Virus record (IMG/VR): IMGVR_UViG_3300023171_000010
Coordinates: 1 to 64,000 of that record
Source: a virus
Lineage: Duplodnaviria; Heunggongvirae; Uroviricota; Caudoviricetes
DNA length: 64,000 nt
Strand: one strand, 5' to 3'
Shown here piece after piece: positions 2,712 through 39,750 of this stretch. Under the pieces are notes generated by a model. It worked only from the letters and a program-made list of their open reading frames with translations, had not been told where the DNA came from and did no database searches. Position 1 is the stretch's first letter. Every line of letters begins with the position of its first letter. The position numbers and the translations under genes are program-made.

Positions 2712-2992
2712 TAATGAATAAAGAAAGCCTAATTCCTTGGGATGTTATTATTGAAATCCTAAACAAATACCAATCCTACAATCCGGGACATGCATCAGAA
2801 CGTGTTAACAAGTTTGTCAATGATGAGATTTATGAGTGGGTTAATAGCCAACCAACTGCTGTAGATGAGAAAGGACAAATGCTGGAAGTCCTTGATGACC
2901 TTAGGTATAATGTGAACTCTAGGCATACAGATGTAAATGAGGCGCTTGGGAATATCTATAAACTGCTCGACTATTTGGTTAGGAAGGAATAA
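2708..2992 (+). CDS. hypothetical protein
   Basis: 94-aa ORF, ATGA overlap with upstream gene. Confidence 0.4.
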   Translation: MIMNKESLIPWDVIIEILNKYQSYNPGHASERVNKFVNDEIYEWVNSQPTAVDEKGQMLEVLDDLRYNVNSRHTDVNEALGNIYKLLDYLVRKE

Positions 2993-2994
2993 GT

Positions 2995-3159
2995 ATGTCT
3001 CATAATGCAGAGAAAAGAAGTCAAGCTTTAGCAATTAGGTGCTATAAACTTCGTGAAGAGGGGCTGACAATATCTGAGATTGCTGATTTAGTAGGGATAG
3101 ACAGAGCTAAAGTATTTACACGTATTATTCTTGGTAAACGGTTGAAGAGTTTGAAATGA
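2995..3159 (+). CDS. small HTH-type DNA-binding protein
   Basis: 54 aa, LTISEIADLVGIDRAKV resembles a helix-turn-helix; AGGAAGGAAT RBS. Confidence 0.35.
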   Translation: MSHNAEKRSQALAIRCYKLREEGLTISEIADLVGIDRAKVFTRIILGKRLKSLK

Positions 3160-3389
3160 AACCTTTACCACCTAAAGCTCCATCAATGCGGACTTACAAG
3201 TCATCATCCCGGAGACTTAGCCTAATTGCTTTTATTGCCTTTGTATTGGCTTTTGGTATAGGCATTGGCATGCACATACATTAATAGAACTAGACTATAG
3301 AACCTGCCATTCCGATAGAATAAAATCTATTGCACAAGCTCTTTCTTTTGGTTAAAATAAAGCATGAAGTTAAACAAAGGAGTATAAAA

Positions 3390-4775: not shown

Positions 4776-5110
4776 ACATAACACAAATGGGTTTCCTACA
4801 AAAACTGATCAATATTCTTCAGGAGTGTGAAGAGAACGGTCTTACATTTTCCCATACACACCTTCGCTTAGATATTGAAGATGATGAGAGTCATTATCTA
4901 GAAAATCTTTCTTCTGATAAACTCTCAAATCTACTAAACTTCATTGATGGGTGTGGAGTTTTTAAATCTGATGAACCACCTCCTGAGCTAGAAAATCTAC
5001 CAACATCAGGAGCACATATTGATTATGACGACGGAAGTAGTGTTGGTGATCATAGCTGCACAATTGAAATTAAAGACGGTGTAGTAACGAAGTGGGAGGT
5101 TACCAAATGA
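4772..5110 (+). CDS. hypothetical acidic protein
   Basis: 112-aa ORF, ATGA overlap. Confidence 0.4.
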   Translation: MNITQMGFLQKLINILQECEENGLTFSHTHLRLDIEDDESHYLENLSSDKLSNLLNFIDGCGVFKSDEPPPELENLPTSGAHIDYDDGSSVGDHSCTIEIKDGVVTKWEVTK

Positions 5111-5328
5111 ACACCACAGGCCCGATGATAGACATCGCTGCCACACTCTTCCTCTTAGCCACAGTAATGCTAGGTGGCTATCTCTGGCTTGATTGGAAGA
5201 AGTCTCAGATTGAAGGTGGTGTGAGTGTAATTGAACAGAAGCAACAAGTGATTATTAAGAGTCTGAAGGATTTGGAAAAGTCTTTCGAGGTCAGTGTTAA
5301 GACAACTAATTTGGAGGAAACGAAATGA
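5092..5328 (+). CDS. small membrane protein
   Basis: 78 aa with one hydrophobic helix (IAATLFLLATVMLGGYLWL). Confidence 0.4.
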   Translation: MGGYQMNTTGPMIDIAATLFLLATVMLGGYLWLDWKKSQIEGGVSVIEQKQQVIIKSLKDLEKSFEVSVKTTNLEETK

Positions 5329-5498
5329 TAATCTGGGCAGTTTTACTTCTTGCAATTGGTGGAGTATGTGTGTATAAATCTAAACAGGCTCCTATGACTA
5401 AAGAAGAACAGGAGTATGAGCTAGAGGTTGTGAGTAAACGAGGAAACAGCTTTTTGACCAACACAACTAAACATAAACCTTACAACGGAGTAGAATGA
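5325..5498 (+). CDS. small membrane protein
   Basis: 57-aa ORF read directly from the sequence (MIIWAVLLLAIGGVCVY...), ATGA overlap. Confidence 0.3.
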   Translation: MIIWAVLLLAIGGVCVYKSKQAPMTKEEQEYELEVVSKRGNSFLTNTTKHKPYNGVE

Positions 5499-5499
5499 T

Positions 5500-5820
5500 A
5501 TGAGTATCTATTTAGCATGGAGTGTTTACAAACTTATTGGTGTTTGTGCATTTATTGTAGCTATTACAGGTATTTTGCTTTATACTGGTAAGTACCAAGA
5601 CAGCATTAAAAATTACAAAAAGGTTAGCTTAATTATTGGTGTTGTTTTACTCTTTATTACTCTTCTATCAGCATTCAACATTGGGGAGCGCCAACAAGAG
5701 CTTGGTCGGTCTAGTTTTAATGCTTCTGCACCAGAAAGTGTTGACAAGATCGGATCACAACGTCAAGATATCCAATCTGTAAAGGATTCATTTGAAAAAG
5801 CTGTAAAACGTACAAACTAA
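5500..5820 (+). CDS. membrane protein, two predicted TM helices
   Basis: 106 aa with two hydrophobic segments. Confidence 0.4.
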   Translation: MSIYLAWSVYKLIGVCAFIVAITGILLYTGKYQDSIKNYKKVSLIIGVVLLFITLLSAFNIGERQQELGRSSFNASAPESVDKIGSQRQDIQSVKDSFEKAVKRTN

Positions 5821-5842
5821 TTTTAAACCAAGGAGATACACA

Positions 5843-6688
5843 ATGAAGAAGATGTTCGCTGTTGTTGCAATTGCTTTATCCATGACTGGCTGTGGTTATT
5901 ACACAGTTCCCCCAGCAGCAAAGGGTAAGATTCTAAGCACCACTGGATATTCACCAGATGTAAAAGAAACCGGTAAGTATCTGTTGTGGGGTCGTGATGA
6001 AATGGTTGTTCTTGACACCAGCACTCAGACTTACGGGGAGGCTATTTCTGTCAAGATGCAAGACAATCTTGACTTAAAGTTTGTTGTCAAGTTCCGTACT
6101 CGTATTGCTGGCGATGATAAAGTAATCAATGCTATGTTCAACGACATCAAGCATGAGGCTTACCAAGTAACCCTTCCAATGGTGTATAAAGTATACGGTC
6201 AAGACGTTGTACAATCTGTAGCTCGTAGTGTCGTAGGTAAGTATTCTACTGAGGAAGTAGCTGCAAATTTTGATAAGATTACAGCAGACCTATACTCTCA
6301 ACTGACTGCTAAAATGAAAGGTAGTCCTCTTGAGATGTCCAATATTACATTGGCTAATCTTGACTACCCTGATACTGTAGATCAAGCATATAATGCTCAA
6401 GCTGAACGTAAGCTTCAGATTGAAACAGAGGCTAACCAACAAGCTGTAGCAATGGTTAAGAAGACAAACGAACTCAAACTTGCTGAGGCTAACTATGCAA
6501 TTGAAATGAAGAAAGCTGAAACTCTTCGTGACACTAACGCAACTACCAGTGCTGGCTTAAGTGATAAGTTGCTGGCTTACCGGGCTCTAGAAGTACAAGA
6601 GAAGATGGCTGAGAATAAAGCCGCTATCTTTGTACCTTATGAGTCGCTAAGTAATACTGGCCTGAGTAATCGGATGTTCAATAAGTAA
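5843..6688 (+). CDS. SPFH/band-7 (prohibitin-like) domain lipoprotein
   Basis: Signal peptide with lipobox LSMTGC; SPFH-like core followed by a coiled coil; AAGGAG RBS. Confidence 0.5.
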   Translation: MKKMFAVVAIALSMTGCGYYTVPPAAKGKILSTTGYSPDVKETGKYLLWGRDEMVVLDTSTQTYGEAISVKMQDNLDLKFVVKFRTRIAGDDKVINAMFNDIKHEAYQVTLPMVYKVYGQDVVQSVARSVVGKYSTEEVAANFDKITADLYSQLTAKMKGSPLEMSNITLANLDYPDTVDQAYNAQAERKLQIETEANQQAVAMVKKTNELKLAEANYAIEMKKAETLRDTNATTSAGLSDKLLAYRALEVQEKMAENKAAIFVPYESLSNTGLSNRMFNK

Positions 6689-6702
6689 ATTTGAGATAAA
6701 AG

Positions 6703-6737
6703 AAAGCCCAGCAATCCATTTAGGAGGCTGGGCTTTG
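6703..6737. terminator. bidirectional intrinsic terminator between convergent units
   Basis: 9-bp stem AAAGCCCAGC...GCTGGGCTTT flanked by T-rich DNA on the - side. Confidence 0.4.
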
Positions 6738-6809
6738 AAGTATCTAAGATAAGGTTAATGGCGTAACCTCAAATGTCTGCTAGGGCAGTACTTATTTTTA
6801 TTCTTTCTC

Positions 6810-7163
6810 TCAAGGCAGAAGAGTATTAATCACTGCATTAGAGTTATTATTGTTGATGATCTTAGGTGCCAGTTTATTCTGCTGTTCAAGTTTATCCATA
6901 CGTTTCTCAAGGATATACATTTTATTACTTGTACTTACCTGATAACTGTCTTGAATTTCAGCTAGAGTATTAATCCTACCTTCAATGTAAGTTACATTAC
7001 TTGCTGTAACCTTCTTACTTTCTTGCCTGAACTCTTCCAGTTTCAAACTAAAAGTATTCCTTTCATCCCCAGTTTTATTATTATTGAAGATGATACTAAT
7101 CATCAATATCAAAAGAACCAAGGTCATGAGATGAACAAACCTTTCTATAATCACCCAGACCAT
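6810..7163 (-). CDS. type II membrane coiled-coil protein (lysis-associated?)
   Basis: N-terminal TM helix then coiled coil; sits at the end of the lysis cassette. Confidence 0.4.
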   Translation of the reverse strand: MVWVIIERFVHLMTLVLLILMISIIFNNNKTGDERNTFSLKLEEFRQESKKVTASNVTYIEGRINTLAEIQDSYQVSTSNKMYILEKRMDKLEQQNKLAPKIINNNNSNAVINTLLP

Positions 7164-7175
7164 GTACCAATCTCC

Positions 7176-7493
7176 CTATCGACCACTCTTAGCTTTATCA
7201 AAGTAAAACTGGAATTGTCTGAGAATATCTTGCTGATTACTATCAACTCTCTGTGCTAAACTTGAGAAACCCGCATCCATACGAGAGTTAGTTCTAACCT
7301 CAAATTCACGCATGTCAGACTTACCGACCTTGTCCATTTGTAGGAGAATGATTTTATCATTAGCATCCTTTACGTCTTTGCTCACACTTTGATAGCTCAT
7401 GAACATCACTGACACACAAATACCTAGCAGAGCAATACATGCCCGCTCAATAAGGTTGTTCATCCTTGTATTAGCATCACTTGGGCTTGACAT
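7176..7493 (-). CDS. membrane protein (lysis-associated; antiholin/spanin-like?)
   Basis: AGGAGG RBS 9 nt upstream of ATG at 7493 (MSSPSD...); one TM helix. Confidence 0.4.
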   Translation of the reverse strand: MSSPSDANTRMNNLIERACIALLGICVSVMFMSYQSVSKDVKDANDKIILLQMDKVGKSDMREFEVRTNSRMDAGFSSLAQRVDSNQQDILRQFQFYFDKAKSGR

Positions 7494-7764
7494 TATAAAG
7501 AGCCTCCTGCGCTTTCTTGTTCTGTTTAATCTTATCCATTTGCTTTTGCCACATAGCAATGCAGCCTGTATTCTTGCTGTATGCTACAGCCAAATCCATC
7601 ACGCTCTCACCTGACGGGCTTGCCTTGCAGGGGTACACTAGGAGGCTGTCCGGTGGTCCCACATATACTGTCTTCGGGGCTTGCAATGCAGTAGGCTGAG
7701 TCGAGCAAGAGACGCAAATCAAGAGAAAGCAACTCAGAACCATAAATTGTAGTAGTTTTCGCAT
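7477..7764 (-). CDS. o-spanin-like outer-membrane lipoprotein
   Basis: Signal peptide with Cys cluster (LLICVSCS), Pro-rich mature part; overlaps the i-spanin 3' end out of frame, as Rz/Rz1 pairs do. Confidence 0.45.
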   Translation of the reverse strand: MRKLLQFMVLSCFLLICVSCSTQPTALQAPKTVYVGPPDSLLVYPCKASPSGESVMDLAVAYSKNTGCIAMWQKQMDKIKQNKKAQEALYNVKPK

Positions 7765-8092
7765 TTTTATTTGTCTCTGTTTCGGAGGGTGCTATTGCAA
7801 CTCCTGTCTTGAGTTTATTTATTTTAACAACTAGGTTATCAATCTTGTCTCTAACCTCTTGTTTCTCAGCTAAGGATTCAACCACTGAGGTGTCATCAAT
7901 CTTACAAGAAGAATCCTTAAGTTCGGCGTCCTTTTGATACCCTAGAATCGCGTTATTAGCATCTTTAAGCTGAGATACTGCTACAGCCTTATCGTTGCTC
8001 AAACTATACGAAAGATAGCCAAAGCCTACTGTTGAAGCTAACAAGGCTAGGATGATGTAGAGGGTGGCACCAGAGAATAGGTTACTGAACAT
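7607..8092 (-). CDS. i-spanin-like protein (N-terminal TM + coiled coil)
   Basis: 161 aa, TM helix at residues 10-30 then helical periplasmic domain; adjacent to holin and endolysin. Confidence 0.5.
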   Translation of the reverse strand: MFSNLFSGATLYIILALLASTVGFGYLSYSLSNDKAVAVSQLKDANNAILGYQKDAELKDSSCKIDDTSVVESLAEKQEVRDKIDNLVVKINKLKTGVAIAPSETETNKNAKTTTIYGSELLSLDLRLLLDSAYCIASPEDSICGTTGQPPSVPLQGKPVR

Positions 8093-8426
8093 TTTCCTTA
8101 TCCTCTTCTGGCTGCCACAACTTATGTTGTTTAATCATCCTGAAGACAGCAGCTGAGACGTTGAGCACGAACATACATGTCCCATATGCAGCTACAGACA
8201 TTGTAGGTTCAAGGAGAGAAAAGAATGGAAGAATGATTTCAACCAGCGACAACAAGGCAGACAATACAGTAGTCCAAAAGGAATAGGTCTTGAGAACCTT
8301 CTTCCAGTTGGGCACTAAAGCCAGTTTAGTAGGAGTAGACGACAGGGTAGAAGTGATAGTTGCTTCAACAGATGTATCTTTTGTGATAGGTATTACAGGA
8401 TCTTCAACTTTTACTGAATCGTTCAT
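8082..8426 (-). CDS. holin candidate
   Basis: 114 aa with 2-3 TM helices and a charged C-terminus; between endolysin and spanins. Confidence 0.45.
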   Translation of the reverse strand: MNDSVKVEDPVIPITKDTSVEATITSTLSSTPTKLALVPNWKKVLKTYSFWTTVLSALLSLVEIILPFFSLLEPTMSVAAYGTCMFVLNVSAAVFRMIKQHKLWQPEEDKENVQ

Positions 8427-31234: not shown

Positions 31235-32626
31235 TTAGCGATTAAATGGATTTTTAGTTGAGAGGTCAGCAGTTACTAAACCACCAAGAAAATTACCAAT
31301 ATGGATTTTCTGTGCTAATGTAATGAATGAGTCACTAGTTGCATCAACTTGGTCATCCTTCACAGCGCGGGTTCCATCGAAGCCTTCCATCTCTGAGAAA
31401 TAAGCATCATTCCATGCACCGCGAACATAACGAACAAGACCCGCTTCCGATGCCGAAACTACTGGTTGAAACCGTACAACCTTAGACTTATTAGACGGGC
31501 GCATTCTTGCGAAAAGACCTTCAGAAATAAGTTCTTTAATCATCATTTGTCCAGCAGCTTTACCTGCCTGGCCCGGCTCTTGTGGAATAATGATTTGAGT
31601 ACCATCGGGGTCATCTAAGCCCGTCTCTACAATGCGCTGCATTACCTCTCCAAATCTTGCCCTAAATCGAACAACATCTAGAATGATATATAGACCTTCT
31701 TTTGTTTTACCCATTAAAACGCCAGCAGTCCAGTCAGGATTTGGCAACGCTTCACAAGGTAAACTTCCGGCAATATCCCATGCACGACAATATTGAACAA
31801 TATTTAAATCATATTCATTTACGGGCTCACCCAGCCACTCCGCTTTCCAAAATCCTGCGGCATCCTCACGAATATCCCAGTTCCCGTAAAGGTCGCGCTC
31901 CTTTTTTACGCGCTTGAGACCTTGAAGGTTTGCAAGATATCCGGGGTTGGATTTAATAAGTGGCGGATTATCGTAGATTGTGGCTGAAATAAACTGTAGG
32001 GACAGTGGACGACAATGTTGTTTTTCATCTGTGTCCGGTAAAATATTACCTTCACCGTCTCTGTTGCCATATATTTCCAGGAGTTCCTCTTTTGTGTCTG
32101 CCCAAATCATGTCACCAGCGATTCGAATAAACCAACGAACTTTACCATCCCGTTCGGGGTCGGGCCGACCTTCGTTTTCTTCTCCTTTTGGAATAATCCA
32201 CCAATCAATCCAACGTCTCAAAAAAGAATCAGGTGAAGGGTTACAAGTCAGGAAAAGATTGGGAACCATCTTTGCTTTAGAACGCAGCCGAGATAATACA
32301 ACCAGAGTATGGTCTTCGGTTATCTGAGTGGCTTCATCTATCATCGCCCCGGAAATTTGGAGGCCACGAAATTTCTCTGCATCTTCGTCAGTTTCCAAGT
32401 GAGACATGGCAATAATGGCACCACTTGGGAACGTAAAGGTCATAGCCTTTTTGTTAATTTTTACTTTAGGATCAAACGCTTTATATAAGCTGGTAGCTTC
32501 GTCAAACAAACCAGAAGCTTTCATCAAAGTTGTTTGGTTTTTACGGATAATGAATCCACGATACTGAGGATCGTCAACCCAGCGGAGATGTCGTAGCAAA
32601 CCACAATAGGACTTGCCACCACCCAT
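31235..32626 (-). CDS. terL: terminase large subunit
   Basis: N-terminal GGGKS Walker A-like motif, AMIDEAT Walker B, C-terminal nuclease-like region. Confidence 0.65.
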   Translation of the reverse strand: MGGGKSYCGLLRHLRWVDDPQYRGFIIRKNQTTLMKASGLFDEATSLYKAFDPKVKINKKAMTFTFPSGAIIAMSHLETDEDAEKFRGLQISGAMIDEATQITEDHTLVVLSRLRSKAKMVPNLFLTCNPSPDSFLRRWIDWWIIPKGEENEGRPDPERDGKVRWFIRIAGDMIWADTKEELLEIYGNRDGEGNILPDTDEKQHCRPLSLQFISATIYDNPPLIKSNPGYLANLQGLKRVKKERDLYGNWDIREDAAGFWKAEWLGEPVNEYDLNIVQYCRAWDIAGSLPCEALPNPDWTAGVLMGKTKEGLYIILDVVRFRARFGEVMQRIVETGLDDPDGTQIIIPQEPGQAGKAAGQMMIKELISEGLFARMRPSNKSKVVRFQPVVSASEAGLVRYVRGAWNDAYFSEMEGFDGTRAVKDDQVDATSDSFITLAQKIHIGNFLGGLVTADLSTKNPFNR

Positions 32627-32943
32627 AGCCTTTTAGTTATAGAGTTCGTTAAACTCTCTTCGCTTTCGCAAAGGATCGGACTATATCTTCTACTTTCGTA
32701 GCCCCCCGTTTCGATTGCACTTGCAACCTACTCGCTTACATTCATCAGCGTTAGTCTCTACACGTTACTTATAAATAAGTCTTCGCTCGGTATTACCCAC
32801 GTCTTTACGTTTGGGTTTCACCGAATTAGAGGGGTTTTAAATGGAGGCGCTAAGTTCACCACCATATACAATGATATTACTATTGCTAGCCAAGAACCAG
32901 CTTTGCTTTCGCGAAGCTGGCTGGAAACTATAATCCATATCTG

Positions 32944-33531
32944 TCATCTGGAAATTTCTTTACCATGATTTTCAGAATATCCGTACGCGACTTCCCAATC
33001 TCTTCGAGCATTTGCTGCATCTTCTAGATTTTTAAATAGACCTAAATAGTGTCTGACTCTCTTACCGTCAACAATTTCTTGACCTTCAGCTTGCCATTTA
33101 CCAGTCTTTTTATGGAAAGATACACCAACAACTCCAGAAGAATTATTACTGTATTTGGAACGGTTTCTGTGGTTAAGTTTATCAATACTAAGTTGTAAAT
33201 TAGATATTGCGTTATTTTGAGTATTTAAATCAATATGATCAATATCTTCGGACGGCCATTCACCGTTTACATAAAACCAGGCAAGGCGGTGGGCTTTATA
33301 AAGCTTTCCACAAAGGCCGATTACAATATATGGTGAAGGATTTCTCTTGGTCACTCTTGATACTGATCCCGCCTCTAAGGAAGGACTAATATTACTATAG
33401 AAGCCATTCTTACCTCTCCAATCTTTGAAGTGTGAATCTGGTCTATCCAACCTCCAAGTAAACTTTCCAGTTTCTGGATTATAAGTTAAAGCTTCTTTTA
33501 AATACTCGTGGGTAAGTAATACTTCATTCAT
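32944..33531 (-). CDS. HNH homing endonuclease with AP2 DNA-binding domain
   Basis: HRLAW...DIDHIDLNTQNNAISNLQL (HNH_3-like) plus C-terminal GVSFHKKTGKWQA...LGLFKNLEDAANARRDWE (AP2-like). Confidence 0.65.
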   Translation of the reverse strand: MNEVLLTHEYLKEALTYNPETGKFTWRLDRPDSHFKDWRGKNGFYSNISPSLEAGSVSRVTKRNPSPYIVIGLCGKLYKAHRLAWFYVNGEWPSEDIDHIDLNTQNNAISNLQLSIDKLNHRNRSKYSNNSSGVVGVSFHKKTGKWQAEGQEIVDGKRVRHYLGLFKNLEDAANARRDWEVAYGYSENHGKEISR

Positions 33532-35862: not shown

Positions 35863-36146
35863 AGTGGGGCAGCCTCGTCTGCTTTCAAATGAATCAATTA
35901 TACTAAAGAATATAATTGACTATAATAACTGGTACACCCCACAGGGAATGATCCTGAGTCATCCAGATTATGAGTCCGGCTGCTTTACCTTAAGCTAGAG
36001 GTGTTTAGAATAGGTGGAACCCCGCCAGAGGTTCCGGGTGTGGACTAGGCAGTCCGATACCAAGCCGAAGCTTAGTTAGGTTTGTAGCTGGGAGTACTCG
36101 CTCCATTTAAAGCCTACCGTTTCACACTGGCTCACTACAAATTCTT

Positions 36147-36548: not shown

Positions 36549-36805
36549 AATATTTATTCCTATGAATAAGTGATTTCTTAAGCGAACTTACCGGCTATGC
36601 CCTGTAGTATTCATAATGAAGAAGAACGCTTAAGAAAGAACACTCACTAAGCGAAGGAGAGAACGCCGCAAGTGTTCGAAAGACCTATTGGAGGAGAGAG
36701 GGACAATAGGTCTTTAAGTGCTGTCTTAGGAGAGGAAATGACAGCGTGAATACCACAATCTTTTTAGACTTACTCTTAGTGATTGTGGGTGAAACTTTTA
36801 CAATG

Positions 36806-36877
36806 TATTCGCAACAGGGGTCGAACCTGTAACCAGAAATTTAGAAGATTTCTACTCTACCATTGAGCTATGCGAAT
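36806..36877 (-). tRNA. tRNA-Arg (anticodon TCT)
   Basis: Hand-folded cloverleaf: perfect 7-bp acceptor ATTCGCA/TGCGAAT, D-arm GCTC-AATGGTA-GAGT, anticodon loop CTTCTAA, T-loop TTCGACC; no encoded CCA. Confidence 0.75.
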
Positions 36878-36880
36878 ATA

Positions 36881-36954
36881 TGGTGCCCCAGTAAAGAATC
36901 AAACTTCACTCTATTGCTTACAAGGCAATTGCATCATCACAATGCTTCAAGGGC
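36881..36954 (-). tRNA. tRNA-Thr-like (anticodon TGT), non-canonical
   Basis: 74 nt with correct arm spacing, anticodon loop CTTGTAA, encoded CCA; acceptor has one T-T mismatch and the D-loop lacks GG. Confidence 0.4.
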
Positions 36955-36959
36955 TTAAT

Positions 36960-37037
36960 TGGCTGATCCTCAGCGATTCGAACGCTGCTTCATCTTGATT
37001 AACAGTCAAGTGCCCTCACCTAGATGGCTCAGGATCA
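36960..37037 (-). tRNA. tRNA-Asn (anticodon GTT)
   Basis: 7-bp acceptor TGATCCT/AGGATCA, anticodon stem CTTGA/TCAAG with loop CTGTTAA, T-arm CAGCG-TTCGAAT-CGCTG, encoded CCA. Confidence 0.6.
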
Positions 37038-37100
37038 ATAATTGGTCTCTAACCGGTGAATTGAACACCGTCCACATCGTCCCAAACGATGCATGCTACC

Positions 37101-37188
37101 GTAACACTTGTCAGAGAATATGGCAGTGGATGTGTGATTCGAACACACGGAGCTTTTACACTCTAAGGTTTAGCAAACCTTTGCAATC
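37101..37188 (-). tRNA. tRNA-Ser (anticodon GCT), type II
   Basis: 88 nt; acceptor AGTGGAT/ATCCACT, 3-bp D-stem, anticodon loop TTGCTAA, 16-nt variable arm, T-arm GTGTG-TTCGAAT-CACAC, discriminator G, encoded CCA. Confidence 0.8.
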
Positions 37189-37216
37189 GGCCTCTCTGCC
37201 AATCCACTGCACTTGT

Positions 37217-38614
37217 TTAAAACTTATAACGGTCTTTCATTACAGCATCCATCATGACAGACTCTGGGGTCATAGACCCACTCAACAAGCTCTTCATAAT
37301 AGTTGGACTAAAGCCACTAACCAATACCGTTCCCTCAGTTCCTTTCGTTACTGGAACTGTACCAGATGAGCAGTTTACATTCCAGAATACAATCTGTGGA
37401 AGTTGATATCCTGATTCTTCATAAGCTTGTTTGAATGCCTGATAGGCTGTTACTTGATTCCCATCACGAATGCAGCTATTAAACTGCATATCTGAAACAA
37501 TCAGAAGCTTTGTGGGCATTTCATCTGCTGGAACACTATACTGTTTAGCTACACCAAGAAGGGTCGTAAAAACTGCTTGAATGTTTGTACTCATTCCCCA
37601 AGGCGCTTTCTTCAAAGCTGCAACTCGTTGTTGCAATGTACCCTCAGACCGGATTAACTGAGGTTGTTCTGAGAAAGTCATAAAGACGTTCTTAAGAACA
37701 CCAATGTTTCGTTCTGACAAATACAACCCCAATGAAACAGCGACATCCATGCAAGTAGTTTCTGACTTACTTGAAGCTCCACCTGCTTTACAACTCATAG
37801 AGCCAGATACGTCCACAATTGGGAGGAAACGTTCTGTACTGTCCTCCAAATAGTTAGGAAGGGCGTTCCACTGAGCCGAAGCAACAACTCCATCTCCATA
37901 CGCCACAGACTTAACTACATCGTAAGGATAAACAACAGAAGCATTAATCTTAGCTTCACCTGTTTCAAGTTTAGCTTTATATTCTTCGTATTCTTTCTTA
38001 GCGTTGCGACCAAATGCTTTTTGATAACGGGCGGCAGCTACAGACGGAATCTTTTCAAAATCAATTTGATCCCATTGCTTTGCACACATCTGTGTTTCAA
38101 CAACACTCGTCAACTCCACCAACATCTTACGATATTCTTTAGGTGTTTTGATTTTCATGTGTTTGCGCAAAGCAGATGCTGTGTTACCTTGACGTGGAAG
38201 CCATTTAGCACAGAGGCCGTTGTTATCAGCCAAACCTGTAGAAATTAAATCAAAGGCTTGTAGTTGGAACTTAGTTCCTTCAAATATAAGCAAATCATCC
38301 CAACGTCCAATTTCAGGAATCAACGGAATAATTTGTTCCAATACTTTATCTTGATGTTCAACAAGAACACTCAATAAGTCTTTAAACTGTTGACGCTCAC
38401 CAGCACCTTCTCGTGCATCGCGAAGCCATAGAAGTGTGCGAATAGCTACGTCTTTGTTTTCAGCCAGAGCTTTCACAAAGTCTGATTTGATATCTTTACC
38501 ACGGCTTGCCCCAGAAACATAGAAGAAATCTAGGCAAGATGACAAGCTGCTATGATGGGTAATAGCGCCATTCTCAGTTAATGCTGTGTTATTAAAAGCT
38601 TCGTACAAGTTCAT
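37217..38614 (-). CDS. vWA (MIDAS DxSxS) domain protein with helical N-terminal domain; Ro60/TROVE-like or DUF2828-like candidate
   Basis: GGAG RBS then ATG at 38614 (MNLYEAF...); C-terminal IVDVSGSMS MIDAS motif; N-terminal TENGAITHHSS..LDFFYVSGASRG loosely resembles the Ro60 N-terminal motif; the track's N-terminal extension runs into a tRNA-like element. Confidence 0.5.
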   Translation of the reverse strand: MNLYEAFNNTALTENGAITHHSSLSSCLDFFYVSGASRGKDIKSDFVKALAENKDVAIRTLLWLRDAREGAGERQQFKDLLSVLVEHQDKVLEQIIPLIPEIGRWDDLLIFEGTKFQLQAFDLISTGLADNNGLCAKWLPRQGNTASALRKHMKIKTPKEYRKMLVELTSVVETQMCAKQWDQIDFEKIPSVAAARYQKAFGRNAKKEYEEYKAKLETGEAKINASVVYPYDVVKSVAYGDGVVASAQWNALPNYLEDSTERFLPIVDVSGSMSCKAGGASSKSETTCMDVAVSLGLYLSERNIGVLKNVFMTFSEQPQLIRSEGTLQQRVAALKKAPWGMSTNIQAVFTTLLGVAKQYSVPADEMPTKLLIVSDMQFNSCIRDGNQVTAYQAFKQAYEESGYQLPQIVFWNVNCSSGTVPVTKGTEGTVLVSGFSPTIMKSLLSGSMTPESVMMDAVMKDRYKF

Positions 38615-38652
38615 AATTTTCTCCTTAAGATTAATATCAGAATCACATTTAC

Positions 38653-38711
38653 GTGCTCTACCAACTGAGCTACATGAGCCTAAACCCATGACAGGACTTG
38701 AACCTGTGACC
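38653..38711 (-). ncRNA. tRNA-like element (T-arm module followed by acceptor/D-arm module, permuted order)
   Basis: - strand reads GGTCACAGGTTCAAGTCCTGT (variable + T-arm) then a CATGGG/CTCATG hairpin then GGCTCATGTAGCTCAGTTGGTAGAGCAC (acceptor 5' + D-arm); no canonical cloverleaf can be closed. Confidence 0.35.
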
Positions 38712-38792
38712 ACGACTTTATCATAGTAGGTTTTATTGCGGTAGTGATTCTTCGTTTTGCCTATTCAGAATGTACATATCTATATGCGAGAG

Positions 38793-38920
38793 TGGATTGC
38801 TGTAGACATTCTTTGGGGCTTATCAGGCTCTACTTTACTTTTCCAATAGTTTGAGATTGCTGTAGAGAGCCTTTAAATTTCTTTCTTAGGAGTAGTATAC
38901 ACTATAAATCTTGGATTGCA
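38793..38920. repeat. three GATTGC-core repeats phased at about 60 bp
   Basis: TGGATTGCTGTAGA at 38793, GATTGCTGTAGA at 38855, TGGATTGCAAGC at 38912; spacings 60 and 59 bp. Confidence 0.4.
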
Positions 38921-38940
38921 AGCTTTTAATAAAATATATT

Positions 38941-39015
38941 TGGAGCGGATAGGGAATTTCGAAATCCCGACGAACAGCTTGGAAGGCTGACACTCTGCCT
39001 CTGAGTTATACCCGC
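38941..39015 (-). tRNA. tRNA-Gly-like (anticodon TCC), non-canonical T-stem
   Basis: 75 nt; acceptor GCGGGTA/TATCCGC, D-arm ACTC-AGAGGCA-GAGT, anticodon loop CTTCCAA, canonical T-loop TTCGAAA but T-T at 53:61, encoded CCA. Confidence 0.4.
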
Positions 39016-39492
39016 TTTAATTCATTGCTCCCCGTCACACAAAGGGAAGACTTTAAACTCTCGTCAGAGTTCTTCAAGCCCCTTAAAGGGAATTAGACAA
39101 TCTTCGTCAAGATTGAATGTGTTCGCAAATAAATTAAAGACAATTAAAACCCTTTATCCGCCACAGGCTGGACCTTGTTACAGGTAGGGAAGACAACCTT
39201 AAAACTATAAGGGATCAGAAGTCTTTTTACTTCAACCTCACATTACCCAATCTTAATTTAATAAGAACAGGGTAGGTCAATGTGAAGGTGCTCCGCGATT
39301 GCCTCAATGACAACTCTCCCGAAGGCTTTAGTGATATCAACGCTCTAAAGCATTTGATATATTAGCTGAATAATACCACCTTCTGTCAGCGTCACACTAC
39401 TCAGCCGAAGCATCTTTTCTAATATGTGAACCACGTTGCCCTTTTACAGTACCTATTATACACTATTTTTGATAAATAGCAAGCATTATTTA

Positions 39493-39669
39493 CTAATTAT
39501 CACTATCAGATAGGATCTTTTTAAACACTGTCCCATAATATGAGATTGACTCGTGTTGGTATTCCCAGCGGAAAGCACCATCTAAGTATTCATCCAAACT
39601 TCCATCGACATCACATCTGCATTCTAAATCTTCGGCCCCACAATCTGGGCAGTAATTAACTTCTCCCAT
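39493..39669 (-). CDS. small Cys-rich protein (CPDCG...CRC zinc-ribbon-like)
   Basis: 58-aa ORF read directly from the sequence, AAAGAGG RBS about 11 nt upstream of ATG. Confidence 0.3.
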   Translation of the reverse strand: MGEVNYCPDCGAEDLECRCDVDGSLDEYLDGAFRWEYQHESISYYGTVFKKILSDSDN

Positions 39670-39750
39670 AATGTGGGAACCTCTTTGTTTTCTAGATAAA
39701 TCAATTAAATCACAAGTGTCTTAGGTTTGTCAAGCTTTTGCATAAAATAA

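What the first reader, a model, noticed from the sequence alone, without database searches (positions are those of the whole stretch)
36806..39750. RNA-centred accessory island: Ro60/TROVE-like vWA protein flanked by tRNAs, a tRNA-like element and about 1 kb of non-coding DNA
The - strand gene 37217-38614 encodes a 465-aa protein with a helical N-terminal domain and a C-terminal vWA domain with an intact MIDAS motif (DVSGSMS). That architecture matches Ro60/Rsr RNA-chaperone proteins and the related DUF2828 family. It sits directly downstream of a tRNA-like element (38653-38711) and directly upstream of a four-tRNA cluster (Ser, Asn, Thr-like, Arg). On its other side lies an unusually long ORF-free stretch (38715-39490) containing a tRNA-Gly-like gene and phased repeats. 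Bacterial and phage Rsr proteins are known to be encoded next to Y RNAs whose effector domain mimics tRNA (Wolin lab YrlA work). A phage-borne Ro60-like protein with its own tRNA-mimic RNAs and tRNAs would be a compact RNA-surveillance or tRNA-repair module. A plus-strand GGCTGGACC at 39167-39175 loosely resembles the conserved 5' end of Y-RNA stems; this is weak evidence.
Basis: partly seen in the sequence, partly recalled or inferred. Interest (0 to 1): 0.8.

Follow-up and report, generated by a model that had tools for sequence, protein, structure and literature searches.

The report
Phage Ro60-like protein with Y-like RNAs
A phage gene for a Ro60-shaped RNA-binding protein is preceded by three small structured RNAs, one of which mimics tRNA; this protein–RNA pairing recurs across very different phages, and the RNA design matches the unexplained "Class I" RNAs of Dictyostelium.

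Summary

The "tRNA-like element" is a YrlA-type permuted T-arm/stem/D-arm domain. It scores 39 bits against Rfam YrlA, below the threshold, but has strong covariation.

Each module has a terminal helix starting AAG and ending CUG, and UAC(A/C)GCAA directly after the 5' strand.

This module lies on the gene strand within 1.2 kb of the DUF2828 gene in 73 of 87 related loci. It is also present in Listeria A511, a mycobacteriophage, Campylobacter CP81, Aeromonas LAh_8 and E. coli phage Bas63. Bas63 gp130 (44% identical) is reported to counter the Ppl defence.

No Rfam family covers the module. Its closest match is Dictyostelium Class I RNA (RF01414), which has the same stem, 11-nt motif and termini.

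Protein–RNA binding and function are inferred, not shown.

The parts
38894..38921 (-). sigma-70-like promoter TTGCAA-16-TATACT that would drive the RNA modules, the protein gene and the downstream tRNAs
   Evidence: Consensus scan, 9/12 matches. Sequence conservation with the four closest relatives begins exactly here. Function as a promoter is inferred.
38825..38872 (-). RNA module 1: terminal helix AGGCUCU/AGAGCCU, spacer C, UACAGCAA (38864-38857), 25-nt variable loop, then G after the helix
   Evidence: Module scan. An independent covariance model R2, trained without the window or its close relatives, gives 30.2 bits, E 1.6e-6. Conserved in L082-L085. Rfam RF01414 gives 15.7 bits.
38767..38812 (-). 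RNA module 2: helix AGAAUGU/ACAUUCU, spacer C, UACAGCAA (38804-38797), 23-nt loop
   Evidence: R2 gives 12.7 bits, E 0.067. Orthologous units in L082, L085 and L084 score 29.2, 28.5 and 23.9 bits. Conserved in relatives.
38639..38751 (-). RNA module 3: helix AGAAUCAC/GUGAUUCU enclosing UACCGCAA (38743-38736) and the tRNA-like domain
   Evidence: The minimum-free-energy fold pairs these two strands. The module scan scores it 8. Both strands are invariant in all five relatives, while the enclosed stems covary.
38652..38714 (-). YrlA-type tRNA-like domain: closing stem, T-arm, 'acceptor-like' stem-loop and D-arm, in permuted order
   Evidence: Rfam YrlA 39.2 bits (gathering score 69), model positions 24-84. 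Own model R1 gives 87 bits. Across 11 distinct homologues, 96% of cells are paired and 13 of 18 pairs show compensatory changes; 0 of 500 shuffles reach this.
37217..38614 (-). DUF2828/DUF7788 protein, 465 aa: N-terminal helical domain plus C-terminal vWA domain with MIDAS motif; Ro60-like predicted fold
36805..37208 (-). five co-oriented tRNA genes (Ser, Pro, Asn, Thr, Arg) starting 9 nt after the stop codon
   Evidence: ARAGORN; Rfam tRNA.
38941..39015 (-). tRNA-Gly(TCC), just upstream of the module promoter
   Evidence: Identical over 81 nt to the tRNA-Gly of Pseudomonas phages KIL2, KIL4 and KIL5 (77 nt for PHB09). In relatives L084 and L085 the tRNA-Gly lies downstream of the gene instead.
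39016..39490 (-). ORF-free stretch of unknown nature; probably not part of the system
   Evidence: Not alignable to any of the four close relatives. No phage database hit and no Rfam hit. Fold z-score is only -1.75. It holds a promoter-like site at 39482-39455 and an imperfect ~145-nt internal duplication.

Best explanation
The locus encodes a phage ribonucleoprotein of the Ro60/Y-RNA kind, built from a divergent protein family and a distinct RNA family.

The protein belongs to DUF2828/DUF7788 and is predicted to have a Ro60-like helical ring plus a vWA/MIDAS domain.

The transcript from the promoter at about 38921 first carries three tandem Y-like RNA modules, then the protein gene, then five tRNAs.

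Each module has a terminal helix that joins its 5' (AAG...) and 3' (...CUG) ends. A single-stranded UAC(A/C)GCAA follows directly after the 5' strand. I infer this to be the binding platform for the protein.

The variable interior is the effector part. In module 3 it is a YrlA-type mimic of the tRNA elbow. In relatives it is often an anticodon-arm-like hairpin or a larger domain.

I infer that the small RNAs are released from the polycistronic precursor, probably by the tRNA-processing nucleases. I also infer that the RNP presents tRNA-like surfaces to tRNA-recognising host factors (nucleases, modification enzymes or defence effectors). This would protect or police the phage/host tRNA pool and counter host defence.

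Shown here: the predicted fold, the RNA structures with covariation, and the gene–RNA linkage across phages. Inferred: protein–RNA binding, RNA processing and the cellular target.
For: Protein:
- Pfam DUF7788 and DUF2828 hits.
- MIDAS residues are invariant.

RNA:
- Three modules 60-61 nt apart.
- Terminal-helix covariation on 58 distinct modules: 87% paired, 129 double changes against 42 in shuffles (0 of 500), and 31-44% paired when the partner is slid.
- tRNA-like domain covariation and the YrlA hit.

Linkage:
- 224 modules on the gene strand against 26 on the opposite strand in 702 kb; 73 of 87 loci have at least one within 1.2 kb.
- The position varies: upstream leader, about 70 nt downstream of the stop, or in gaps of the tRNA cluster.
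- Modules are also present in loci without any tRNA.
- Modules are present next to 35-44%-identical homologues in Listeria A511, Mycobacterium phage Nicholas, Campylobacter CP81, Aeromonas LAh_8 and Bas63.

Precedent:
- Rsr/YrlA encoded adjacently (PMC4201824).
- Thermus phage Ro60 binds upstream Yrl RNAs and PNPase (PMC12135203).

Function hint:
- Deleting Bas63 g130 sensitises the phage to the Ppl defence (preprint PMC11482910). gp130 is 44% identical to this protein.
- 48 of 80 loci sit in co-oriented tRNA clusters.
Against: No experiment shows that a DUF2828 protein binds these RNAs, or that the RNAs accumulate.

At sequence level the protein fails the TROVE and vWA_Ro60 thresholds.

The ring closure and RNA-binding surfaces rest on an AlphaFold model.

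In the helix analysis the 3' partners were chosen by complementarity. This inflates pairing, although shuffle and slide controls and the independently conserved CUG(U) tail argue that the helix is real.

In this window the modules form the mRNA leader, so a purely cis role is not excluded here.

14 of 87 loci lack a detectable module. Some of these are truncated contigs or carry motif variants.
Confidence: 0.7

Rival explanations
1. The modules are cis-acting elements of the operon and are not bound as trans-acting RNAs by the DUF2828 protein. They could be processing signals for RNase E, III or P, transcript stabilisers or attenuators for the tRNA/mRNA precursor.
For: They lie in the 5' leader here and among tRNAs in Felixounaviruses. 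Their conserved termini could be cleavage sites. There are no expression data.
Against: They track the DUF2828 gene rather than tRNAs: loci with no tRNA within 4 kb still have them. They occur upstream, downstream or hundreds of nt away. A conserved 8-nt single-stranded motif plus a covarying helix, kept across phages of Gram-positive, Gram-negative and actinobacterial hosts, suggests a phage-encoded reader rather than host RNases.
Confidence: 0.12
2. The modules are only an autoregulatory operator. The protein binds its own leader to repress translation, and there is no effector RNP.
For: In the window, and in many loci, the last module ends 10-25 nt before the ribosome-binding site.
Against: In mycobacteriophage Nicholas, Bas63 and many metagenomic loci the modules are downstream of the gene or separated from it by tRNAs. 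There are multiple copies with elaborate, conserved tRNA-like inserts, which an operator does not need.
Confidence: 0.1
3. The protein is a vWA/MIDAS protein acting on proteins or DNA (Ku- or chelatase-like), and its resemblance to Ro60 is only a matter of fold. The neighbouring RNAs are unrelated small RNAs of tRNA clusters.
For: There is no sequence-level TROVE hit. The reported Bas63 phenotype concerns Ppl, a putative DNA-degrading defence (PMC11482910).
Against: The full-length structural matches are exclusively Ro60 proteins, and Ku and other vWA proteins match only the C-terminal domain. The RNA–gene linkage is strong and strand-specific.
Confidence: 0.05
4. The tRNA-like element is a decayed tRNA gene or a junction between two tRNAs.
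For: It carries near-consensus T- and D-arm sequences. Tandem tRNA junctions do confuse such searches.
Against: The D-arm follows the T-arm within one closed three-way structure. There is no acceptor or anticodon arm. ARAGORN makes no call and Rfam tRNA scores 13-16 bits. The element is conserved with compensatory changes in 11 distinct homologues and is enclosed by the module helix.
Confidence: 0.02

Closest known systems
Bacterial Ro60 (Rsr) with YrlA/YrlB Y RNAs (Salmonella, M. smegmatis; Chen et al. 2014, PMC4201824)
   Same: Ring plus vWA/MIDAS protein. Small RNAs encoded next to the gene on the same strand, several per locus, possibly from one precursor. Terminal helix plus an effector domain. 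The same permuted T-arm/stem/D-arm tRNA mimic.
   Different: The protein is DUF2828/DUF7788, about 70 residues shorter, with no TROVE profile hit. The terminal helix and its UACAGCAA motif do not match the YrlA stem: Rfam aligns only positions 24-84, at 39 bits against a gathering score of 69. The 2014 survey searched only genomes annotated with TROVE.
Thermus phage phiLo Ro60 with Yrl1/Yrl2 (PMC12135203; PDB 9kop, 9l5y)
   Different: That protein is a TROVE-domain member. Its RNAs were defined by a CGAA motif in a bulge, not by stem plus UACAGCAA, and no tRNA cluster is involved.
Bas63 (Escherichia phage JohannRWettstein) gp130, the PhageMaP preprint (PMC11482910)
   Same: A homologue (44% identity, E 6e-125) directly upstream of the tRNA cluster. 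The authors noted the Ro60-like structure and guessed that some 'tRNAs' might be Y RNAs. Deletion sensitises the phage to Ppl.
   Different: No RNA partner was identified there. Here three stem-UACAGCAA modules are located in gaps of that tRNA cluster (L095 2440-2497, 2895-2962, 2982-3107), partly under small annotated ORFs on the opposite strand.
Dictyostelium Class I RNAs (Rfam RF01414; Kjellin et al. 2021, PMC7919456)
   Same: Same design at nucleotide level. A 6-8-bp covarying helix joins the 5' and 3' ends. A (C)UUACAGCAA motif lies directly after the 5' strand. The interior is variable. The conserved start is AAG and the conserved end is CUG(U). The RF01414 model, built from amoeba sequences only, hits the phage modules full-length at up to 29.6 bits.
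   Different: All phage hits are below the 41.5-bit gathering score; window module 1 reaches only 15.7 bits. Class I RNAs are independent nuclear genes with a DUSE promoter and were reported as unique to Dictyostelia. Their known direct binder is the RRM protein Rnp1A. Whether Dictyostelium has a DUF2828 protein could not be tested here.

Membership tests
Pfam DUF2828 (PF11443) / DUF7788 (PF25043); PHROG 850 | Profile score above the curated cut-off | tested here: met
   DUF7788 160.2 bits (cut-off 27.1); DUF2828 88.1 bits (cut-off 29). PHROG 850 at 3e-154, full length.
Ro60 / TROVE | TROVE (PF05731) or vWA_Ro60 (PF25045) profile match | tested here: not met
   No TROVE hit at E<=1. vWA_Ro60 13.5 bits against a cut-off of 27.7. 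The profile against PDB sequences gives only E 0.05 at the MIDAS motif.
Ro60 / TROVE | Helical-repeat ring followed by a vWA domain (fold) | tested here: met
Ro60 / TROVE | MIDAS motif DxSxS...T...D | tested here: met
   DVSGS at 268-272. D268, S270, S272, T343 and D375 are invariant in 50 homologues.
Ro60 / TROVE | Binds Y RNA on the outer surface of the ring | not testable with these tools
   Only genetic linkage to the RNA modules is shown.
YrlA (Rfam RF02553) | Covariance-model score at or above the gathering score of 69 bits | tested here: not met
   39.2 bits, with only model positions 24-84 aligned. Homologues score 32-41 bits.
YrlA (Rfam RF02553) | Permuted tRNA-like domain (T-arm, stem-loop, D-arm) closed by a stem | tested here: met
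   Alignment to the model. 96% paired, 13 of 18 pairs compensatory.
YrlA (Rfam RF02553) | Encoded within 4 kb of the Ro60 orthologue on the same strand (criterion of Chen 2014) | tested here: met
   38 nt upstream of the start codon, on the same strand. The neighbour is a Ro60-fold DUF2828 protein, not a TROVE orthologue.
Dictyostelium Class I RNA (Rfam RF01414) | Score at or above the gathering score of 41.5 bits | tested here: not met
   Window module 1 scores 15.7 bits. Related phage modules score 19-29.6 bits, all full-length and all on the gene strand.
Dictyostelium Class I RNA (Rfam RF01414) | Short covarying helix joining the 5' and 3' ends; 11-nt motif next to the 5' strand; termini AAG...CUGU | tested here: met
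   Modules 1-3: AAG + helix + C/- + UAC(A/C)GCAA ... helix + CUGA. Helix covariation. Features as defined in PMC7919456.
Dictyostelium Class I RNA (Rfam RF01414) | Dictyostelid nuclear gene with an upstream DUSE element | tested here: not met
   This is phage DNA with a sigma-70-like promoter.
tRNA | Cloverleaf with acceptor and anticodon arms | tested here: not met
   For 38652-38714: no ARAGORN call; Rfam tRNA 13-16 bits against a threshold of 29.

The most novel reading that the evidence does not exclude
The stem-UACAGCAA RNAs are the cognate ligands of DUF2828/DUF7788 Ro60-fold proteins. This would be an ancient RNP shared by phages of many bacterial phyla, giant viruses and eukaryotes. 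The Dictyostelium Class I RNAs (about 40 abundant genes, function unknown since 2004, reported as unique to dictyostelids) would be its eukaryotic members. They would then act as Y-RNA analogues that tether a Ro60-like protein to variable, often tRNA-like, effector domains.
Probability: 0.4. Interest if true: 0.9.

Novelty: new variant of a known kind. Interest (0 to 1): 0.8.

Why it matters
DUF2828 proteins are encoded in at least 711 sequenced phage genomes, including all Felixounaviruses, Listeria A511-like phages and several mycobacteriophage clusters. They are annotated at most as "Ro-like" or "RNA-binding" proteins, with no known ligand.

This work gives them a concrete, testable RNA partner with a defined recognition motif. 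It explains unannotated gaps, and some small annotated ORFs of doubtful reality, in phage tRNA clusters. It also supplies the missing candidate RNAs for the reported anti-Ppl activity of Bas63 gp130.

The variable inserts mimic tRNA parts. This points to a counter-defence or tRNA-surveillance role tied to phage tRNA clusters.

If the match to Dictyostelium Class I RNAs reflects common ancestry or a shared protein reader, a twenty-year-old open question about those RNAs becomes directly testable.

Tried and rejected
1. It is on the wrong strand and in DNA that none of the four closest relatives share. Rejected.

2. 39016-39450 as a large structured RNA or a second Y RNA. No Rfam hit, no phage homologue, no exact-pattern match in viral contigs, and a weak fold z-score of -1.75. 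It contains no stem-UACAGCAA module. Left unexplained.

3. Exact-pattern search with AAGAATCACTACCGCAA in viral contigs. This gave two GC-rich coding-sequence chance hits, L096 and L097. Discarded.

4. My first model, R1 (the tRNA-like domain), is confounded by junctions between adjacent tRNAs in tRNA clusters. Hits were kept only when they did not overlap ARAGORN tRNAs.

5. Other module-scan hits in the window (26398-26318, 24272-24079, 3704-3607, 2063-1865 and four on the + strand). They lack the conserved flanks and lie in coding sequence. Treated as noise, consistent with the opposite-strand background rate.

6. Testing for a Dictyostelium DUF2828 protein. The AFDB library was unavailable, Avesson 2011 is not held, and literature searches found DUF2828 and UCP015417 only in plant papers and one tardigrade genome preprint. 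Giant-virus members were found instead.

7. Sequence-profile search against PDB gave only marginal TROVE matches. The Ro60 relationship therefore rests on the predicted structure.
Full report
**The observation**

The minus-strand ORF 37217-38614 starts at an ATG that follows an AAGGAG site. It encodes 465 aa containing PIVDVSGSMS.

ARAGORN finds five co-oriented tRNAs immediately downstream: Ser, Pro, Asn, Thr and Arg, at 37208-36805. It also finds tRNA-Met at 35930-36004 and tRNA-Gly at 38941-39015.

An Rfam scan at relaxed threshold reports YrlA (RF02553) at 38652-38714(-): 39.2 bits, E 2.5e-6. This covers only the tRNA-like part of the model, positions 24-84 of 114.

Three 20-nt direct repeats lie 61 and 60 nt apart at 38734-38874.

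**The protein**

Pfam gives DUF7788 (5.8e-47) and DUF2828 (7e-25). vWA_Ro60 is sub-threshold and TROVE is absent. PHROG 850, 'RNA-binding protein', matches end to end.

An AlphaFold2 model built from 50 homologues has pLDDT 85.5 and pTM 0.86.
- Foldseek against PDB ranks the Thermus phage TROVE protein 9kop (E 9e-7, TM 0.52) and D. radiodurans Rsr first.

The MIDAS residues are invariant.

The protein is therefore Ro60-like in predicted fold, and a member of DUF2828/DUF7788 by sequence.

The family is large. There were 7527 hits among the 8000 candidates scored. It occurs in 711 cultured-phage records, including Felixounaviruses, Listeria A511, mycobacteriophages annotated 'Ro-like RNA binding protein', and Campylobacter, Vibrio, Bacillus and Staphylococcus phages. 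Structural relatives also occur in giant viruses of protists.

**The RNA in the window**

I aligned the upstream DNA with four relatives whose proteins are 72-92% identical (L082-L085). Conservation starts abruptly at a TTGCAA-16-TATACT promoter-like site (38921-38894) and runs to the start codon. Everything upstream of that, including 39016-39490, is unalignable.

The conserved 310 nt contains three tandem modules with one design:
- AAG, then a 7-8-bp helix strand, then C or nothing;
- UAC(A/C)GCAA;
- a variable interior;
- the complementary strand, ending in CU and followed by G.

The modules lie at 38872-38825, 38812-38767 and 38751-38639.

The third module encloses the tRNA-like domain. 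That domain shows 96% pairing and compensatory changes at 13 of 18 pairs in 11 distinct homologues.

**The RNA elsewhere**

I fetched 80 IMG/VR loci encoding 45-55%-identical proteins.
- 48 of them carry tRNAs within 4 kb, and all 494 of those tRNAs are on the gene strand.
- All seven loci scanned with Rfam have a sub-threshold YrlA hit just upstream of the gene.

The module is far more general than the tRNA-like insert.
- With the pattern U[ACU]C[ACU]GCAA preceded by a strand that pairs downstream, there are 224 modules on the gene strand against 26 on the opposite strand.
- 73 of 87 loci have at least one within 1.2 kb.
- Several of the remainder are truncated contigs or carry motif variants.

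The consensus is (U)UAGG-N4-5 | U(A/U)CAGCAA | 17-278 nt | A-rich | N4-5-CCUG-UU.

On 58 distinct modules the helix is 87% paired. It has 129 double-change cells against 42 in shuffles (0 of 500), and 31-44% pairing when the partner is slid. One caveat applies: the 3' partners were picked by complementarity. Shuffling the downstream sequence gives an equally good partner in 20% of cases against 77% observed. The CUG(U) tail is also conserved independently of that choice.

I built a covariance model from 26 short modules, using none from the window or its close relatives. It finds module 1 at 30.2 bits (E 1.6e-6) and module 2 weakly at 12.7 bits. It finds nothing else in the 64-kb window at default settings.

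Module position varies between loci: the 5' leader, about 70-80 nt after the stop codon, or gaps of the tRNA cluster. Loci without any tRNA still have modules. The RNA therefore tracks the protein gene, not the tRNAs.

**Cultured phages**

The same modules flank the homologue in several cultured phages:
- Listeria A511: three, upstream of gp57.
- Mycobacterium phage Nicholas: three, downstream of gp54. The middle one holds a YrlA-like insert (37.9 bits, full length).
- Campylobacter CP81: two.
- Aeromonas LAh_8: at least five.

In E. coli phage Bas63 (MZ501086), gp130 is 44% identical to the window protein. Three modules sit in gaps of the downstream tRNA cluster.

A preprint reports that deleting g130 makes Bas63 sensitive to the Ppl defence. 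Its authors noted the Ro60-like fold and speculated that some 'tRNAs' are Y RNAs (PMC11482910).

Chen et al. 2014 searched only genomes annotated with TROVE. The library holds no paper that links DUF2828 to an RNA.

**Relation to known RNA families**

No Rfam 15 family reaches threshold on the modules.

The one family that hits them repeatedly is RF01414, Dictyostelium Class I RNA. The hits are always full-length and always on the gene strand: 29.6, 28, 25.7, 21.9 and 19.1 bits on five tandem modules of LAh_8; 29.6 bits in L016; 19 and 18.5 bits in L004; and 15.7 bits on window module 1. The gathering score is 41.5.

Its consensus is GAUCUC-CUUACAGCAA-(A/U-rich)-GAGAUC-UG. My detector parses it into the same layout as the phage modules.

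Kjellin et al. 2021 define Class I RNAs by four features: a short covarying stem joining the ends, an 11-nt motif next to the 5' strand, a conserved start AAG and a conserved end CUGU. They concluded that the class is unique to Dictyostelia and that its function is unknown.

The window modules share all four features. Whether this reflects common descent, transfer together with a DUF2828 gene, or convergence on one protein reader cannot be decided here. I could not test whether dictyostelids encode DUF2828.

**Mechanism**

By analogy with Ro60/Y RNA and with the phiLo phage Ro60, which binds two upstream Yrl RNAs and host PNPase, I propose the following. All of it is inference.
- The protein binds the terminal helix and the UACAGCAA platform.
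- The variable interior engages other factors.

Module 3 presents a tRNA-elbow mimic. In relatives, 23% of short modules carry an anticodon-arm-like hairpin, against 2.4% of shuffles.

Together with the embedding in tRNA clusters and the Bas63 phenotype, this points to counter-defence or tRNA-pool surveillance.

**Context**

The window is a tailed-phage genome with no close DNA relative in the phage collection. It carries ribonucleotide reductase, PhoH, portal, protease, major head protein and an intron-interrupted terminase.

Noticed in passing
window 32657-32883(-), 32944-33531(-), 31235-32626(-): A group I intron (Rfam 71.5 bits) lies just upstream of a terminase large-subunit ORF that lacks roughly its first 175 profile positions. 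An HNH endonuclease ORF sits immediately upstream of the intron. This looks like an intron-split terL with a homing endonuclease.
   Followed up: partly
L042 1849-2277: A GOLLD RNA (Rfam 196.6 bits, above threshold) sits in the same co-oriented tRNA cluster about 1.7 kb upstream of the DUF2828 gene of that viral contig.
   Followed up: no
short modules in L003, L006, L012, L013, L038, L043, L047, L072, L099, L101 and others: Many short modules carry a 4-5-bp hairpin with a 7-nt loop of the form YU-NNN-R-N, like a tRNA anticodon arm (for example UUGA-CUUUUAA-UCAA). This occurs in 23% of short modules against 2.4% of shuffled interiors. The window's modules 1 and 2 do not show it.
   Followed up: partly
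window 38937-39017: The tRNA-Gly(TCC) is identical over 81 nt to that of Pseudomonas syringae phages KIL2, KIL4 and KIL5 (77 nt for PHB09), although nothing else in 4.2 kb matches any phage at DNA level. One 55%-identical protein homologue is from a Pseudomonas record. This hints at a Pseudomonas-like host or at tRNA exchange.
   Followed up: no
window 39016-39490(-): An ORF-free stretch with a strong promoter-like site (TTGCTA-16-TATAAT, 39482-39455) and an imperfect ~145-nt internal duplication (39034-51 / 39177-94 and 39092-104 / 39242-54). It is absent from all close relatives and has no database match.
   Followed up: partly
L095 (Bas63, MZ501086) 2949-3223; L100 (CP81) 1367-1504: Small annotated 'hypothetical protein' ORFs (bas63_0137 and bas63_0138 on the opposite strand; CP81 ORF140) overlap predicted RNA modules and may be mis-annotations.
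   Followed up: no
L081 (Salmonella phage Mushroom, NC_041923) 5085-8134: The RefSeq record lists the tRNA cluster on the strand opposite to the DUF2828 gene. ARAGORN places all 17 tRNAs on the gene strand, as annotated in Bas63. The record probably has the strand wrong.
   Followed up: yes
L032, L037, L043, L059, L064, L067, L072, L073, L077 (about -520 to -330 from the gene): Many loci carry two larger modules (interiors about 140 and 215-235 nt) with conserved internal sequence, including a T-arm-like hairpin (GGAGUUUCGAUUAGUCUCC). Rfam has no match for them. These may be further sub-classes of the RNA family.
   Followed up: no
BFVD matches to the model: DUF2828/DUF7788-fold proteins occur in giant viruses of protists, including Pithovirus LCPAC304 (TM 0.86), Marseillevirus LCMAC202, Cafeteria roenbergensis virus, ChoanoV1 and Bodo saltans virus. 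Whether these carry stem-UACAGCAA RNAs was not examined.
   Followed up: no
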